Counted from the stretch's first letter, positions 4,756 through 47,115 are shown. The stretch is DNA of 64,000 nucleotides from Candidatus Latescibacterota bacterium (GCA_965248355.1 OZ252098.1:4704001-4768000); one strand, 5' to 3'. The notes: generated from the sequence alone by a model not told the origin. Numbers and translations are program-made.

Positions 4756-5607
4756 CTACGCCGGCGGCGGATGCTGCCCGCCGAGCAACTGGTCCAGGCG
4801 GCTGCCGGCGGGCGGGTGCTCGTTCTCCGGGACCGGGACCGCGTTCATCCAGCCGAATCGACGGTAGGCCCAGTCCACCGCGTACTGTGACTGGATCAGG
4901 TAGCGGGTGCGGTCCGACGTGTTCGGGGCCCCGCGGTGCCAGCACTGCGGGTCCTGCAGGTAGATGTCTCCCGCCTTGCAGTACACGGATACGGGGCCGC
5001 GCCCATCGAACTCGGGATTCTCCTGGTCGTTGGGATCCTTCCCCGAGAGGTGGCTTCCCGGGACGTACTGGGTCGGCCCGTGCTCGATCCGGTCGATGTC
5101 GGTGAGGGCCATCTGCACCGTGATCCACAGCACCGGCGGCGGGATCCGGGGGTCGTGGCGGGGCACGTCCTCCGGCACGGGGAAGTGGACGGAGCCGTCG
5201 ACGTGCCACCTCTCGATGGCCACGCCGGTCTGGTTGCGCAGCACGTTCTGACCGCAGAACCGGCAGTTCGGTCCGACGACCGCCTCGGCCAGCCCGAGGA
5301 TGGGCTCGCGAAGCAGCATGTCCCGGAAGATCTGGTGCAGGGCGATCGTGCCCCGCAGGATGAAGGGCCGCTTCGGGTCGTCGCCGCGAGACATCTGCAC
5401 GTAGCGGCGATCGTGCAGTCGGAGGTCCTCCACTTCCGCGAGCTGAGGATCGTCGAGCAGCTCGTCCGTCCTGTCCCGCAGCGCCTGCATCTCACCTTCT
5501 TCGAGGACGCCGGGGACGTGAACGAAACCGTCCCTGTGGAAGGCAGCGACGATCTCCTGCGTCTTCTCCTCTGGGAATCGCTCGCCGGATTGGATCGGAG
5601 TTGTCAT
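4756..5607 (-). CDS. Phytanoyl-CoA dioxygenase (PhyH)-family protein
   Basis: FHRDGFVHVPGVL, WHVD, GPTQYVPGSH, AGD....QCWHRG.PN; GAGAGG RBS before ATG 5607. Confidence 0.9.
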   Translation of the reverse strand: MTTPIQSGERFPEEKTQEIVAAFHRDGFVHVPGVLEEGEMQALRDRTDELLDDPQLAEVEDLRLHDRRYVQMSRGDDPKRPFILRGTIALHQIFRDMLLREPILGLAEAVVGPNCRFCGQNVLRNQTGVAIERWHVDGSVHFPVPEDVPRHDPRIPPPVLWITVQMALTDIDRIEHGPTQYVPGSHLSGKDPNDQENPEFDGRGPVSVYCKAGDIYLQDPQCWHRGAPNTSDRTRYLIQSQYAVDWAYRRFGWMNAVPVPENEHPPAGSRLDQLLGGQHPPPA

Positions 5608-5718
5608 GTGTCCTCTCGCCCTTTGGACGGCTCCAAGATCTGAGCGGGTTTCGGGTTTCGTCCTGCTCATCGGTGAGGGTATGACGCGTCTCCTGGTTCG
5701 GCAACTACGCGGCAGGCA

Positions 5719-6324
5719 TCACTCCGACAGCGGCAGCAGTATGCCGTCCTCGCCCCCGATCATCTCCGCGGCCCCCATGAAGAAATCCCGTCCAACCAGG
5801 GCCGCGGCCACGGCGTCGAGCTCGTGTCCGCTCATCGATGCGCGCAGCCCCCTCGCTCCAAGCCGGCCCAGGCCCCTGCGCAGGCCTTCGCGGTCGTGCT
5901 GCTGCCGGGGCAGTCCCCAGACGTCGAGGGCCCCGCCCGGGTAGCACTCCACCGGCACCAGACCCGCGGCCTCGATCTCCGCCTTCAGCCTGAGCCCGCG
6001 CTCGGTCAGCATGCGCATCGGCCCCAGGGTGATCGGGAAGAAGCGGATGCCCAGCCGCTGCAGCTCACGGTCGCACGGCCGGAAGTGTTCCCCGTTGCGG
6101 TCGCCGATCTCCCGCCGGCCCGGAGGCAGGCTGAGGGGCGCGTCGATCGGCACGAGGTCAGGCCCGGCGGCGCGGATCAGGCCCAGGATCTCCGCGTCGT
6201 CGAAGGCGAGCTGCGTGCGGGCGCGGTCCCCGGTAAGGATGCAGATGCCGGTCGGTCTCGCGGGCGAGCCGGCCAGGTCGATGCCGGCGACGACCCAGCG
6301 GCCGGGTTGGATCGGCGTTGTCAT
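5719..6324 (-). CDS. DUF429-family (RNase H-like) protein
   Basis: AGIDLAGSPARPTG, IDAPLSLP, RPCDREL, VECYPG, HELDA. Confidence 0.85.
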   Translation of the reverse strand: MTTPIQPGRWVVAGIDLAGSPARPTGICILTGDRARTQLAFDDAEILGLIRAAGPDLVPIDAPLSLPPGRREIGDRNGEHFRPCDRELQRLGIRFFPITLGPMRMLTERGLRLKAEIEAAGLVPVECYPGGALDVWGLPRQQHDREGLRRGLGRLGARGLRASMSGHELDAVAAALVGRDFFMGAAEMIGGEDGILLPLSE

Positions 6325-44471: not shown

Positions 44472-45087
44472 TAGATGCGGACAAACCCGCCTTAATGAGT
44501 TCAGTAAAGAAGGCCTCAATCGGCGATCGCATCGGTCCACAATCTGAGGTACAATGGGCCCAAAGCTCGGCCAGCATTTCCGCCGCTTCAGTCTTTTCCG
44601 GTCGAGGATTCCATAGAGCTGTGAAGGCCTCTAATAGTGATTCGGAGCGGATCAAAGAGAATGCAATGGTCTCTTCGGGAAGCCCCAGTCCTGTCAGCTT
44701 CCTCATGTTCCGCAGAAGGGGAGTAAGGCGGTAGGTCTCTTTCCAGATGTGCAGCTTGCCAGGGCCGGGCATGGGATGCGCCTCCTCTAAGCCTTATTCG
44801 CGGAGAACCGGGCGCCCTCAGAACTCAGGGGCACCCCTGAGCCCAAGGTAGAAAAAATCGGGCGGGCGATGCCGGGACGAAGGCCCGGCCACCCGGGCCC
44901 AGCTCAACCACCGAAGGGGCGGCCGATGCCGTCTGCATCTCCCGGGGCCGGGTGCCGCCCGCGCCCGAAGGTGGCACCGGGTCCGCGGGCGCGCCAGTCC
45001 GCCTCCCTTGCCGGAGGCGGCCGGCGGAGTGAGCTTTCGCCGACCCGTCATGCCGTCCAGCCTCTCCTCCCTCCCGTCCCGCCGCCC

Positions 45088-47115
45088 GTGAGCCTGTCCC
45101 GGCTGCTCGCCGGGCTGGCGCCCGGCCACATCACCACCATCGCCGGCGTCGGCTACCTCGACGGCGTGCCGGCCCGGGAGGCCCCCGCCGGCACGCCCCA
45201 GGGAGTGGTGCGCACCGCCGCCGGGGACCTGATCGTGCTGGACATGTGGGGTCACCGTATCTGGCGCATCGACACCGATGGGGTGCTGCATCTCTTCGGC
45301 GGCGACGGCGTACCCGGGGGGAGAGGCGACGGCGGCCCGGTGGCCGGGGCCCGCTTCCACGATCCCCACGATCTGGCCCGCGACCGGCACGGCCACCTCT
45401 ACCTGACCGACCTGGGCAACCACGCGGTGCGGCGCATCGACATCGACACCGGGATCATCACCCGGGTCGCCGGCTCGGGCCGCGTCGGCTGGGGCGGCAA
45501 CGGCGGCCCGGCCCTGGAGTGCGAGATCGACAACGACTCCGGCATCGCCGTCGACGACGACGGCAACGTCTACCTCTCCTGCGAGTGGTCGAACGTGGTC
45601 CGCCGCATCGATGCCCGCACCGGCGTCATCGAGCACTTCGCCGGCCTCGAGGCCCGGCATCACGGCCTCGAGCGCGGCGCCAGCCGGCCCTTCTCGGGCC
45701 CGTGGCTCAGCCTCGGGGGCTACTCGGGCGACGGCGGCCCGAAGGAGCGGGCCGGCTTCCACCACCCCGAGCATCTCGCCTTCGACTCGAAGGGCGACCT
45801 GTACGTGTGCGACAACTCGAACGACCGCATCCGCAGGATCGACATGACCACGGGCCTGGTCAGCACCGTTCTCGGCAACGGCATGCGGGCTTCCAGCGGC
45901 GACGGCGAGCTCGGCCCGGAGGCGGCCGTGTTGATGCCGGACGCCCTGTTCTTCGACGTCCATGACAACATGTACGTGGGCGAGAAGTACGGTTTCCGCG
46001 TGCGCCGGGTGGACGCGAAGACGGGGCGCGTCTCCACGGTGGCCGGCAACGGCCGGCCGGGGTGGGGCGACGAGGGGCTGCCGGGTCCCGAGAGCCGCAT
46101 CAACTCGGTGGAGGCCGGTCTGTGGGCCGACCCCGACGGCACCGTGTTCTGGGGGGACTCCTCGGGCCGCCTGCGCCGGTGCGACGGCCCCACCGGCATC
46201 GTCACCACGGCCCTGGGGGGCACCTCGATCCACGACGGCGGACCCGCCGCGGCGGCCTTCCTGCGGGGGCCTTGCGGCCTCTCCGTGGCCGGGAACGGCG
46301 ACATCTACGTCGCCGACATGTGGAACCAGCGGGTGCGCGCCATCGATGCCGCCACCGGCGTCATCCGCACCGTCGCCGGCGAGGGCGCGCGCGCCTACGG
46401 GGGAGACGGCGGGCCGGCGGCGGAAGCCTTCCTCGGCAACCCGGCCGACGTCTCCGCCGGACCCGGCGGAGACGTCCTCATCGCCGACACCCGCCACAGC
46501 CACGTGCGCCGCGTGGACGGCTCGGGCGTGATCCACAACTTCGCCGGGGCCGGCTTTCCCTGGGACCTCGGCGACGGCGGGTCGTCTATCAACGCCTGCC
46601 TCATCTCGCCCGCCGCGGTCGAGCACGGCCCGCGGGGCGACGTCTACATCGCCGACGCCGGCGCCCACCGGATCCGCAAGGTCGACGCCGAGACCGGGAT
46701 CATCACCCCCGTCGCCGGCAACGGTCTCGACGGCTGCACCGGGGACGGCGGTCCGGCCCGCCAGGCCCGCATCGGGCGGCCCGAGTCCCTGCGCTTCGAC
46801 GGCGCCGGCAACCTGTTCTTCGTGGACAGCGCCTCCTGCGTCGTGCGCCGCGTCGATGTCGCCTCGGGCCGGATAGAAACCGTCCTCGGCTGCGGCGCCG
46901 AGGGCTTCTCCGCCGACGGCACGCCGGCGCGGGAGGCCCGCCTCGGCAGCCCCCGGGGGCTGGAAGTCACCGCCGACGGGGGTGATGCCGGGGACGGCGG
47001 CCCGGCCACCCGGGCCCGGCTCAACCACCCCTGCGGCCTGCGCCTCTACGGGGACGGCCTGCTGCTCATCAGCGACCACTGGAACAACAAGCTGCGCGCC
47101 GTCCGCCTCGGGTAG
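45088..47115 (+). CDS. NHL-repeat (teneurin-like beta-propeller) protein
   Basis: Repeated GDGGPA..A....P.....D..GNLY..D..N..IRRID units; start uncertain; last repeat appears deleted near 46980. Confidence 0.88.
   Translation: MSLSRLLAGLAPGHITTIAGVGYLDGVPAREAPAGTPQGVVRTAAGDLIVLDMWGHRIWRIDTDGVLHLFGGDGVPGGRGDGGPVAGARFHDPHDLARDRHGHLYLTDLGNHAVRRIDIDTGIITRVAGSGRVGWGGNGGPALECEIDNDSGIAVDDDGNVYLSCEWSNVVRRIDARTGVIEHFAGLEARHHGLERGASRPFSGPWLSLGGYSGDGGPKERAGFHHPEHLAFDSKGDLYVCDNSNDRIRRIDMTTGLVSTVLGNGMRASSGDGELGPEAAVLMPDALFFDVHDNMYVGEKYGFRVRRVDAKTGRVSTVAGNGRPGWGDEGLPGPESRINSVEAGLWADPDGTVFWGDSSGRLRRCDGPTGIVTTALGGTSIHDGGPAAAAFLRGPCGLSVAGNGDIYVADMWNQRVRAIDAATGVIRTVAGEGARAYGGDGGPAAEAFLGNPADVSAGPGGDVLIADTRHSHVRRVDGSGVIHNFAGAGFPWDLGDGGSSINACLISPAAVEHGPRGDVYIADAGAHRIRKVDAETGIITPVAGNGLDGCTGDGGPARQARIGRPESLRFDGAGNLFFVDSASCVVRRVDVASGRIETVLGCGAEGFSADGTPAREARLGSPRGLEVTADGGDAGDGGPATRARLNHPCGLRLYGDGLLLISDHWNNKLRAVRLG

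What the first reader, a model, noticed from the sequence alone, without database searches (positions are those of the whole stretch)
5584..47029. Recurrent gene-end duplication architecture: accessory genes bracketed by diverged copies of the neighbouring gene's terminus, with no integrase
Seen: at least six independent cases in 42 kb: 5584-5609/6301-6326, 10447-10602/13573-13728, 25778-25900/26824-26946, 29350-29413/30790-30856, 38874-38934/41365-41425, 42729-42756/44912-44939, plus 44868-44912/46984-47029. The copies are direct, 25-160 bp, roughly 84-95% identical, and the targets are unrelated (soxR, aceE, ankyrin, beta-helix, PhyH, a promoter). One copy is always in an intact gene, the other is a stub, and 0.7-3 kb of cargo lies between them. 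In the four 3'-end cases the stub lies downstream of the cargo. Known: site-specific integrases leave such attL/attR pairs but are target-specific, and IS target duplications are short and identical. Inference: a target-independent, homology-anchored gene-acquisition route, such as homology-facilitated illegitimate recombination or single-crossover uptake of DNA from related strains, in which the donor allele replaces the gene end and the old end is stranded.
Basis: partly seen in the sequence, partly recalled or inferred. Interest (0 to 1): 0.8.

Follow-up and report, generated by a model that had tools for sequence, protein, structure and literature searches.

The report
Gene-end stubs flanking small inserted islets
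Several small foreign gene islets in this bacterial genome sit between an intact gene end and a leftover copy of that end, which is the scar of an already described, integrase-free kind of insertion, so the pattern is real but not a new mechanism.

Summary
All seven repeat pairs exist at the stated coordinates (82-96% identity). Twenty shuffles of the window gave no such repeat. Those at 25778/26824, 29339/30782, 38875/41366 and 42729/44912 flank 0.9-2.5 kb islets, and same-genus genomes lack each islet and hold the repeat once. The soxR pair is an old, partly homogenised duplication. The 26-bp pair is a shared 5' end of two intact genes, kept in all five genomes. The 44868/46984 pair brackets no cargo: it is a 49-bp piece of the NHL gene carried at the edge of the neighbouring islet.

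An independent k-mer assembly of reads spans the units without a difference, so this is not a misjoin. No integrase, tRNA or terminal inverted repeats belong to the islets, and the one IS has its own 4-bp duplication.

The architecture matches "insertion with long target duplication" (Nobusato 2000; Furuta 2010), here with non-restriction cargo. Short copies of nearby sequence at islet edges and a truncated transposase fragment point to illegitimate or template-switch joining anchored by local homology. The donor-allele idea is only weakly supported.

The scan has noted the same pattern in other genomes (e1-4709799, e1-774720). This is a new member of a known kind.

The parts
5584..5609 (-). 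5' end (start codon plus 7 codons) of the PhyH-family gene. Copy 1 of the 26-bp repeat.
   Evidence: The same ~20 nt stand at both gene starts in 5 of 5 genomes. There is no empty site.
6301..6326 (-). 5' end of the DUF429 gene (5719-6324). Copy 2 of the 26-bp repeat.
10447..10602 (.). Stub of the soxR/MerR gene 3' end plus about 45 nt of its downstream flank, lying between the transglutaminase gene and the DUF6785 gene.
   Evidence: Orthologous stubs of about 85 bp (G006) and about 204-215 bp (G007); absent in G002 and G004.
10937..12787 (+). DUF6785/DUF6784 membrane-protein gene. 'Cargo' of unit 2, present in all 4 relatives at 94-98%.
12801..13572 (-). YefM/YoeB toxin-antitoxin islet, present only in G000 and G004. 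It has no long flanking repeat.
13573..13728 (-). Intact 3' end of soxR/MerR (gene 13578-14192). Copy 2 of unit 2, 96% identical to the stub.
25778..25900 (-). Stub of the 3' end of ankyrin gene A plus the intergenic spacer. Unit 3, stub side, next to ankyrin gene B.
25901..26823 (.). Islet 3, made of three pieces: an 82-bp fragment of a multicopy transposase gene (25904-25985); a collagen-repeat lipoprotein gene on the + strand (26208-26684); and a 49-bp copy (26772-26820) of 25514-25562.
   Evidence: Absent in 4 of 4 relatives.
26824..26946 (-). Intact 3' end of ankyrin gene A (from 26835). Unit 3, gene side.
29339..29413 (-). Stub of the aceE 3' end joined to the true start of the downstream ankyrin gene. 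Unit 4.
29414..30781 (-). Islet 4: low-GC (57-60%) 403-aa ORF (29424-30632) of unknown family. NERD/PD-(D/E)xK is a lead only.
   Evidence: Absent in 4 of 4 relatives.
30782..30856 (-). Intact aceE 3' end plus a copy of the first 3 codons of the downstream gene. Unit 4, gene side.
38875..38934 (-). Stub of the beta-helix gene 3' end, read as the last 20 codons of the PMT_2 ORF. Unit 5.
38935..41365 (-). Islet 5: PMT_2 glycosyltransferase gene (to 41207) preceded by U' (41249-41338), an 81% copy of the region upstream of the beta-helix gene (44922-45003).
   Evidence: Empty in G006, G002, G004 contig C309 and run X1. Filled in G007 and G004 contig C235.
41366..41425 (-). Intact 3' end of the beta-helix gene (41365-42702). 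Unit 5, gene side.
42729..42756 (.). Left copy of the 27-28-bp repeat in the beta-helix/NHL intergenic region. Unit 6.
42757..44911 (.). Islet 6: about 600 bp of low-GC3 DNA with a small minus-strand ORF (42757-42918 plus 44474-44911), split by an IS. Its right edge holds a 15-bp partial copy of the flanking repeat (44860-44874) and a 49-bp copy of NHL gene 46980-47029 (44864-44912).
   Evidence: Absent in 4 of 4 relatives.
42919..44473 (+). IS with a DDE_Tnp_1_4 transposase, 7 further full or near-full copies at 99.9% in the genome, its own inverted ends and a 4-bp TAGA duplication. It is a secondary insertion into islet 6.
44912..44939 (.). Right copy of the unit 6 repeat.
46980..47029 (+).

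Best explanation
The repeats are scars of small-islet insertion by the cell's general recombination and repair machinery, not by an element-encoded enzyme. This is the process described as 'insertion with long target duplication'.

Foreign or pangenome DNA of 0.9-2.5 kb entered at tightly packed gene junctions. The joining duplicated 27-123 bp of the target, so one copy stays attached to the intact gene and the other is stranded as a stub.

The most likely joining mode (inferred, about 60% within this explanation) has two steps. One side is anchored by homology with the neighbouring gene end, on DNA from a related strain or on the sister chromosome. The other side is joined illegitimately, or by microhomology-guided template switching that re-enters upstream of the exit point.

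The gene-end location is largely a survivorship effect. An insertion at a stop/start junction survives only if the junction is duplicated and both genes stay whole. Afterwards the repeats drift, are homogenised by conversion (soxR pair), are eroded from the cargo side, or mediate loss of the islet.

Shown: the insertions, the single-copy targets, the absence of recombinase, tRNA and terminal inverted repeats, and the chimeric islet edges. Inferred: the joining chemistry and the donor.
For: - Empty sites with the repeat in single copy. Unit 3, 4 of 4 relatives; unit 4, 4 of 4; unit 6, 4 of 4. Unit 5: G006, G002, G004-C309 and run X1 are empty; G007 and G004-C235 are filled.
- Four unrelated targets with repeat lengths of 123, about 75-88, 60 and 27 bp.
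- No recombinase in the window's Pfam map. Genome-wide there are 3 PF00589 hits and 1 PF00239 hit, all outside the window. No tRNA. No inverted repeat pair at the two ends of any of the 4 islets.
- The IS inside islet 6 made a normal 4-bp duplication.
- Illegitimate or chimeric edges. An 82-bp internal piece of a multicopy transposase gene abuts the unit 3 stub.
- Short same-orientation copies of sequence from 0.2-3.6 kb away sit at an islet edge in units 3, 5 and 6, and in an independent G006-specific islet: 49 bp at 96%, 90 bp at 81%, 49 bp at 90%, 62 bp at 95%.
- In unit 6 the order is partial repeat, then NHL fragment, then full repeat, with a 7-nt GATGCCG overlap at the first switch.
- The repeats span stop/start junctions. 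In the empty site the aceE stop overlaps the next start.
- Ku and ComEC homologues are present.
- The same architecture is in print (PMC2853133, passages read; PMC3457768, passages read).
Against: - No donor was found, so homology anchoring is not shown. Islet 4's protein has no relative above 55% identity in 132 same-class genomes. One scan of genome contigs found none. One scan of metagenome contigs gave a single 50% hit.
- Both repeat copies are about equally distant from the empty-site orthologue.
- Polarised differences are small and mixed.
- In units 2 and 3 both copies share 5 positions absent from all 4 relatives, which fits self-duplication of the target without a donor allele.
- 4 of 8 variable islets in the region have no long repeat, so the duplication is not obligatory.
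- The passenger fragments could instead be relics of earlier positions of the islets in a donor.
- All four relatives may form one clade, so 'absent in 4 of 4' may be one event.
Confidence: 0.6

Rival explanations
1. True long target-site duplication. A staggered double-strand break (nicks 27-123 nt apart) was filled in, and foreign DNA was ligated between the ends by Ku/LigD end joining. Both copies were identical at birth, and all differences are later drift.
For: - A Ku homologue is present.
- Repeat length is variable and the targets are unrelated.
- In units 2 and 3 both copies share 5 positions seen in 0 of 4 relatives.
- The two copies are equally distant from the empty-site orthologues.
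Against: - The model does not explain the copied fragments from 0.2-3.6 kb away at islet edges, or the 215-bp gap inside the unit 3 repeat.
- Unit 4 has 0 shared derived positions, and its selected, intact end carries more amino-acid changes than the neutral stub.
- In unit 3 the intact end carries 4 of the 6 differences.
Confidence: 0.2
2. Decayed attL/attR pairs of small integrase-less islands (CIME-like) that were mobilised in trans by site-specific recombinases targeting gene 3' ends.
For: Integrases that target gene ends leave exactly such stub/intact pairs (recalled general knowledge; also Figure 1b of PMC2853133). The genome does encode 3 tyrosine recombinases and 1 serine recombinase.
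Against: - Four different targets in 20 kb would need several specificities.
- None of the 4 recombinase genes is within 2 Mb of the window.
- The islets are 0.9-2.5 kb with no integrase remnant.
- The repeats have no common motif and no consistent fold; 6 of 8 arms fold no better than shuffles.
- Stub lengths differ between genomes for the same site.
Confidence: 0.08
3. The repeats are older local duplications or paralogy, and the 'empty' sites in relatives are secondary deletions between the direct repeats. The islets would then be ancestral rather than inserted.
For: - Unit 5's islet is present in G007 and G004-C235 at only 86-87%, lower than its flanks.
- Units 1 and 2 are old and present in all relatives.
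- The region is full of ankyrin paralogues.
- Direct repeats do promote deletion (PMC2884548, passages read).
Against: - Islets 3, 4 and 6 are absent in 4 of 4 relatives.
- Islets 4 and 6 have foreign composition: GC 0.57-0.60 against about 0.70 and GC3 0.57-0.66.
- Islet 3 carries a transposase fragment.
- tblastx shows no paralogy beyond the repeat arms for units 2, 4 and 5.
Confidence: 0.07
4. Assembly artefact: two strain alleles stitched in series by the assembler.
For: The genome looks like a metagenome-derived single contig (completeness 95.7%, contamination 4.18%). The repeats differ at strain-like levels.
Against: - Logan's independent k-mer contigs of run X20 cover 25401-30990 and 33004-42947 with 0 differences and even depth (10.7 and 12.3). 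X22 agrees. These runs may be the source sample, so they exclude an assembler misjoin but are not independent biology.
- A run from another study (X1) shows a filled unit 3 variant and an empty unit 5.
- Stubs also occur in the separately assembled G006 and G007.
Confidence: 0.02

Closest known systems
Insertion with long target duplication (Nobusato et al. 2000, Gene 259:99, seen only as a citation; Furuta, Abe & Kobayashi 2010, NAR, PMC2853133, passages read; Lim et al. 2012, PMC3457768, passages read)
   Same: - The insert carries no mobility gene.
- It is flanked by long direct repeats of variable length (their examples run from 45 to about 420 bp, with identities such as 44/46 and 384/412).
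- The repeat is single-copy at the empty site of a related genome.
- The repeats often span a translation start or stop, so the target gene stays intact.
- The mechanism is unknown.
   Different: - Their screen required restriction-modification cargo. Here the cargo is a lipoprotein gene, an unknown 403-aa ORF, a glycosyltransferase and a small ORF.
- The copies here are more diverged (82-95%).
- One repeat is below their 30-bp cut-off.
- Several islets carry extra short copies of nearby sequence at one edge.
Homology-facilitated illegitimate recombination during natural transformation (de Vries & Wackernagel 2002; Prudhomme et al. 2002; both seen as citations and as described in PMC2884548)
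   Same: It is recombinase-gene-free acquisition of foreign DNA, with a homologous anchor on one side and an illegitimate joint on the other. It is independent of the target. ComEC is present in this genome.
   Different: As I recall it, HFIR normally deletes or replaces recipient DNA rather than duplicating it. No donor or anchor tract could be shown here. Competence of this organism is unknown.
attL/attR pairs of integrative elements that target gene 3' ends (recalled example: e14 and phage 21 in icd of E. coli)
   Same: An intact gene end supplied next to the element, and a displaced diverged stub on the far side.
   Different: There is no integrase in or near the islets. Four different targets are used, the islets are under 2.5 kb, and there is no shared core.
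Microhomology-mediated template switching (MMBIR/FoSTeS), recalled from work on human and yeast structural variation and on E. coli amplification
   Same: Insertions flanked by duplications, with short templated copies from nearby sequence and 0-7 nt microhomology at the switches.
   Different: To my knowledge it has not been established as a route for acquiring foreign genes in bacteria. Here it is inferred from anatomy only.

Membership tests
Insertion with long target duplication | The inserted segment is absent from a related genome that keeps both flanks (an empty site). | tested here: met
   Units 3, 4 and 6 are empty in 4 of 4 relatives. Unit 5 is empty in G006, G002, G004-C309 and run X1. 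[quoted passage not shown]
   Unit 3, 123 bp; unit 4, 75-88 bp; unit 5, 60 bp. The two flank alignments overlap by 110-115, 75-93 and 60-67 bp in the relatives. Unit 6 is only 27-28 bp, below the published cut-off.
Insertion with long target duplication | No integrase or transposase accounts for the insert. | tested here: met
   Pfam map. Genome-wide PF00589 and PF00239 hits lie outside the window. The IS in islet 6 has its own 4-bp duplication. Islet 3 holds only an 82-bp transposase fragment.
Insertion with long target duplication | The cargo is a restriction-modification system. This was a criterion of the published screens, not of the mechanism. | tested here: not met
   No methyltransferase or restriction family in any of the 4 islets. 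No PADLOC hit. For islet 4, NERD scores E=0.081, below its cut-off.
Homology-facilitated illegitimate recombination | A donor-derived homologous tract on one side and a 3-8 bp microhomology joint on the other. | tested here: inconclusive
   No donor was found. The aceE end is slightly more diverged than in relative-to-relative comparisons up to about 30930. Polarised differences are mixed.
Site-specific integrative element (att pair) | A recombinase gene within or beside the element. | tested here: not met
Site-specific integrative element (att pair) | The same target or core sequence is reused by related elements. | tested here: not met
   Four unrelated targets (ankyrin gene end, aceE end, beta-helix gene end, intergenic region). 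No common fold.
DDE transposon | Terminal inverted repeats and a short target duplication of fixed length. | tested here: not met
   No inverted pair at the two ends of any islet. Repeats are 27-123 bp, against 4 bp for the resident IS.
Integron cassette | A folded attC-type site at each cassette boundary, and an integron integrase. | tested here: not met
   6 of 8 repeat arms fold no better than shuffles; only the unit 5 arms do (z -2.9 and -4.0). No tyrosine recombinase is nearby.

The most novel reading that the evidence does not exclude
Small islets in this lineage are copied into the chromosome by a replicative, microhomology-guided template-switch process (MMBIR-like). A broken or stalled 3' end leaves the chromosome, copies foreign DNA, sometimes samples sequence 0.2-3.6 kb away, and re-enters upstream of its exit point. 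That would produce both the long target duplication and the small 'passenger' copies at islet edges. If so, this is a general recombinase-free route of gene gain that could explain horizontal-transfer hot spots without mobile-element genes.
Probability: 0.2. Interest if true: 0.65.

Novelty: new member of a known kind. Interest (0 to 1): 0.35.

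Why it matters
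Many horizontal-transfer hot spots in bacterial genomes hold no mobile-element genes, and how the DNA gets in is poorly documented. Here four clean insertions lie within 20 kb, each with its empty site, its junctions and in three cases small templated copies at one edge.

The set shows that 'insertion with long target duplication' is not confined to restriction-modification genes. It also gives concrete junctions from which a mechanism (end joining, single crossover or template switching) could be tested.

For annotation, the stubs create false ORF extensions and fusions. The PMT_2 ORF ends in 20 beta-helix codons, and the NHL ORF starts inside an islet.

It does not reveal a new machine.

Tried and rejected
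- Donor search. Islet 4's protein was searched in 132 same-class genomes: best hits outside G000 were 55% and 44% identity, at other loci. One scan of genome contigs found nothing. One scan of metagenome contigs gave a single 50% hit on a 1.4-kb contig. No donor was identified.
- attC-like or other shared structure in the repeats: none.
- Terminal inverted repeats of the islets: none.
- tRNA genes: 0. Rfam families at gathering score: 0.
- PADLOC hits for the five cargo proteins or pieces of islets 3, 4, 6 and ins0, and for DUF6785 and PMT_2: none. Only DUF429 hit PDC-S44.
- Earlier scan notes near this place: none.
- A genome-wide direct versus inverted count looked striking: 833 v 49, and 109 v 4 after isolation. 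But 86 of the 109 isolated direct pairs are conserved patches of tandem paralogues by tblastx. The raw asymmetry is therefore not evidence for the mechanism. The inverted pairs were not put through the same paralogue filter.
- Sliding identity of the aceE and ankyrin A ends against relatives showed no clear donor tract.
- (second 19.5-kb control region) was run but not interpreted. Loci L032-L034 were fetched and not used.
- Runs X24 and X1 cover the stretch only in parts. Uncovered parts are not used as evidence.
The exact count is 23.

Full report
OBSERVATION

A BLAST self-comparison of the window finds 14 direct and 1 inverted repeat (25-300 bp, >=80%, spacing 300-6000 bp, E<=0.01). Twenty dinucleotide-preserving shuffles gave none of either kind.

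Two further repeats belong to the same units and were missed. They are 25514-25562/26772-26820 (96%) and 41249-41338/44922-45003 (81%).

GENE MAP

The window is high-GC, about 0.70, with low-GC patches at 29-31 kb and 43-45 kb. Pfam names the following genes:

| Coordinates | Strand | Gene |
|---|---|---|
| 4756-5670 | - | PhyH family |
| 5719-6324 | - | DUF429 |
| 6411-7241 | + | AAC(3) family |
| 8305-10407 | + | transglutaminase-like |
| 10937-12787 | + | DUF6785/6784 |
| 12903-13367 | - | YoeB module |
| 13578-14192 | - | MerR/SoxR |
| 14104-15870 | + | Rieske protein |
| 15915-16446 | - | YafQ/RelB |
| 18.5-29.4 kb | | ankyrin and LRR genes |
| 30790-33471 | - | AceE |
| 33491-34687 | - | amidohydrolase |
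| 37051-38865 | + | GHL10 |
| 38874-41207 | - | PMT_2 |
| 41365-42702 | - | beta-helix |
| 43058-44431 | + | DDE_Tnp_1_4 transposase |
| 44869-47115 | + | NHL-repeat protein |

The cargo of unit 3 is not the minus-strand ORF 26094-26825. It is a plus-strand lipoprotein gene with a collagen-type repeat (26208-26684). The cargo of unit 4 is a low-GC3 403-aa ORF (29424-30632) without a family. NERD at E=0.081, and atlas neighbours with PDDEXK or NERD labels at score 0.76, are leads only.

EMPTY SITES

Four genomes that the tool labels as the same genus (G002, G004, G006, G007) are syntenic at 85-93% identity.

- **Unit 3.** The two flank alignments overlap by 110-115 bp in each of 4 of 4 relatives. 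The repeat is single-copy there and 25901-26823 is absent.
- **Unit 4.** The overlap is 75-93 bp in 4 of 4, and 29414-30781 is absent.
- **Unit 5.** The overlap is 60-67 bp in G006, G002 and G004 contig C309. G007 and G004 contig C235 carry the PMT_2 gene at 86-87%, without a stub (G007) or with a shorter one (C235).
- **Unit 6.** 42757-44911 is absent in 4 of 4, and the 27-bp repeat is single-copy.

Units 1 and 2 have no empty site. DUF429 and DUF6785 are present in all four relatives.

NOT A MISASSEMBLY

Logan's independent k-mer contigs of run X20 cover 25401-30990 (one 6576-bp record) and 33004-42947 (one 9944-bp record) with no difference, at depths 10.7 and 12.3. X22 agrees in shorter pieces. 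These runs may come from the sample the genome was assembled from. They exclude an assembler misjoin but are not independent biology.

Run X1, from another study, holds a relative (about 93-95% identity) with two informative records:

- One record has the islet 3 gene between the same two ankyrin genes.
- Another record joins 38839 to 41366 with 37 other letters. That is an empty unit 5.

ANATOMY OF THE FOUR INSERTIONS

The repeats span gene junctions.

- **Unit 4.** In the empty site the aceE stop overlaps the start of the next gene. In G000 the gene-side copy holds the aceE end plus the first three codons of that next gene. The stub-side copy holds the aceE end joined to the real downstream gene.
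- **Unit 3.** The cargo-side copy is composite: the ankyrin A end, then 3 bp, then a 49-bp copy of sequence that normally lies 215 bp further on. At its other edge the islet begins with an 82-bp internal piece of a transposase gene that has four longer copies elsewhere in the genome. That edge is an illegitimate joint.
- **Unit 5.** The islet carries a 90-bp copy (U') of the region upstream of the beta-helix gene in front of PMT_2. The stub supplies the last 20 codons of the PMT_2 ORF.
- **Unit 6.** The insert is a 600-bp low-GC3 islet with a small minus-strand ORF. That ORF was later split by an IS, which has 7 other copies at 99.9%, its own inverted ends and a 4-bp TAGA duplication.

The right edge of islet 6 reads as follows: a 15-bp partial copy of the flanking repeat, then a 49-bp copy of NHL gene 46980-47029, then the full repeat. 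A 7-nt GATGCCG is shared at the first switch. It is a passenger fragment, not a bracket.

G006 has an islet of its own, a HAD-type hydrolase gene, at the amidohydrolase start. It has a target overlap of about 30-40 bp and a 62-bp copy of sequence from about 300 bp inside the amidohydrolase gene at one edge. So 4 of the 5 long-repeat islets examined carry a short copy of nearby sequence. Unit 4 does not.

WHICH COPY IS OLDER

Both copies are about equally far from the empty-site orthologue:

| Unit | Stub matches | Intact-end matches | Length |
|---|---|---|---|
| 3 | 107-112 | 105-110 | 123 |
| 4 | 62-66 | 63-67 | 75 |
| 5 | 50-53 | 51-53 | 60 |
| 2 | 134-138 | 134-138 | 156 |

Polarising the differences with the four relatives gives the following:

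| Unit | Stub-derived | Intact-derived | Ambiguous | Shared by both copies, in 0 of 4 relatives |
|---|---|---|---|---|
| 2 | 3 | 2 | 2 | 5 |
| 3 | 2 | 4 (all synonymous) | 0 | 5 |
| 4 | 6 | 5 | 2 | 0 |
| 5 | 4 | 4 | 1 | 1 |

In unit 4 the intact aceE end differs from the relatives' consensus at four residues and is one codon longer. The stub differs at two.

This leans towards a foreign end in unit 4. It leans towards self-duplication, or a very close donor, in units 2 and 3. The numbers are too small to decide. A sliding comparison shows no clear donor tract.

THE OLD CASES

**Unit 1.** The same ~20 nt (start codon plus six or seven codons) head both PhyH and DUF429 in 5 of 5 genomes. This is a conserved shared gene start, not a recent scar.

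**Unit 2.**
- Stubs of the soxR end share a stub-specific left edge but differ in length: G006 about 85 bp, G000 about 160 bp, G007 about 204-215 bp.
- Each stub is followed by unrelated sequence.
- G002 and G004 have no stub.
- G000's two copies are 96% alike, against 88% for G007's.
- G006's stub resembles G000's type rather than G006's own soxR end.

This points to conversion between the copies in G000 and to repeated turnover at the inner edge of the stub.

NOT EVERY ISLET HAS A LONG REPEAT

Eight variable islets were seen against the relatives. Four have long repeats (units 3-6) and four have none:

- 3151-4750, a secreted-protein ORF.
- The YoeB module, 12801-13572.
- The YafQ/RelB site, where different cassettes occupy the same slot.
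- The DUF433 islet, 23791-24655.

GENOME-WIDE

The raw excess of direct over inverted repeats is 833 v 49, and 109 v 4 after isolation at E<=1e-5. It is mostly due to tandem paralogues: 86 of the 109 extend at protein level.

Twenty-three isolated pairs remain. Eight of them have a gene 3' end in one arm. Three of the 23 lie in this window, which is 1.16% of the genome. Units 3 and 6 are excluded by the filters.

One pair outside the window was checked. The 86-bp pair at G000 3625816/3628330 flanks 2.4 kb that includes a methyltransferase gene. In G006 the two flank alignments overlap by 66 bp, so the site is empty there. G007 and G002 carry the insert.

The architecture is therefore sporadic across the genome and concentrated in this variable region.

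ENZYMES

- Three tyrosine-recombinase hits (at 0.32, 1.06 and 2.24 Mb) and one serine-recombinase hit (0.99 Mb). None is near the window at 4.70-4.77 Mb.
- A Ku homologue and a ComEC homologue are present.
- No tRNA and no Rfam family in the window.
- The repeat arms share no fold. Only the unit 5 arms fold better than shuffles.
- The islets have no terminal inverted repeats.

HOW IT MOST LIKELY WORKS

Shown: small pieces of DNA were inserted at four unrelated junctions with duplication of 27-123 bp of target, without any element-encoded enzyme. One or both edges of the insert are chimeric.

Inferred: the cell's own recombination and repair machinery did the joining. I rank three modes.

1. 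A homology-anchored event with an illegitimate or template-switch second joint that re-enters upstream of the exit point. This explains the duplication, the passenger copies, the microhomology and the transposase fragment.
2. A staggered break, filled in and end-joined by Ku/LigD. This explains the shared derived positions but not the passenger copies.
3. Integrase action in trans. This is disfavoured by the four different targets and the lack of any core.

The gene-end position is probably a filter rather than a targeting rule. At overlapping or closely packed junctions, only insertions that duplicate the junction leave both genes intact. Furuta et al. made the same point for restriction-modification inserts.

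COMPARISON WITH WHAT IS KNOWN

[quoted passage not shown] This holds for units 3, 4 and 5. Unit 6 falls just under the length cut-off.

It differs in cargo, which is not restriction-modification, and in having more diverged copies.

- PMC2853133: I read passages, not the whole text and not the supplements.
- PMC3457768: passages read. [quoted passage not shown] 2000: seen only as a citation.
- HFIR: compared from the description in PMC2884548 (passages read) and from recall.

Earlier notes of this scan describe the same pattern in other genomes. I did not test those notes.

VERDICT

The 'donor end replaces the old end' detail is unproven, and the phenomenon is already described. The added value is a compact, well-resolved set of non-restriction examples whose edge anatomy hints at template switching.

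Noticed in passing
window 5584-5609 and 6301-6326: Two adjacent, unrelated genes (PhyH family and DUF429) begin with the same ~20 nt (start codon plus six or seven codons) in all five genomes compared. These nucleotides are better conserved than their surroundings. This suggests constraint on a shared translation-start feature, or ongoing conversion.
   Followed up: partly
window 4598-4714: A 113-119-bp element has at least 9 other copies at about 91% in the genome. Several lie 2-8 kb from copies of the IS found at 42919-44473. It sits at the edge of the G000-only insert 3151-4750. It could be a MITE or the end of a larger composite element.
   Followed up: no
window 15887-16584: The YafQ/RelB toxin-antitoxin slot holds different small cassettes in G002 and G006, and part of RelB in G004. 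This is allelic substitution at one site without long repeats.
   Followed up: partly
window 38875-38934 and 41366-41425: Both copies of the beta-helix gene end fold into a strong hairpin built on a CCTGCAGG pair (z -2.9 and -4.0 against shuffles). It may be a terminator inside the coding end between convergent genes.
   Followed up: no
window 18532-20683; G002, G006, G007 syntenic loci: The 715-aa ankyrin gene is single-copy here. In the relatives' syntenic regions it is present in two (G006, G007) or three (G002) tandem copies at 87-90%.
   Followed up: no
G004 contigs C235 and C309: The same assembly holds both the filled (PMT_2) and the empty allele of unit 5, on separate contigs. This suggests strain heterogeneity in that bin.
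   Followed up: no
G000:C1:3625816-3625900 and 3628330-3628415 (L030 6816-6900 / 9330-9415): An 86-bp, 92% direct repeat flanks 2.4 kb with a methyltransferase gene. G006 has the site empty, with a 66-bp overlap of the flank alignments. By my reading (no family search was run on it) the repeat looks like the end of a small toxin gene plus the start of a HigA-like antitoxin gene.
   Followed up: partly
window 5719-6324: The DUF429 protein matches the PADLOC candidate defence family PDC-S44 (E=1e-8).
   Followed up: no
window 6411-7241: A full-length aminoglycoside 3-N-acetyltransferase family gene (Pfam E=5.8e-90), conserved in the syntenic region of the relatives.
   Followed up: no
window 44869-47115: The longest NHL ORF starts inside the inserted islet (before 44911). 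Its annotated 5' end is therefore probably an artefact of the insertion, and the true start lies further downstream.
   Followed up: no
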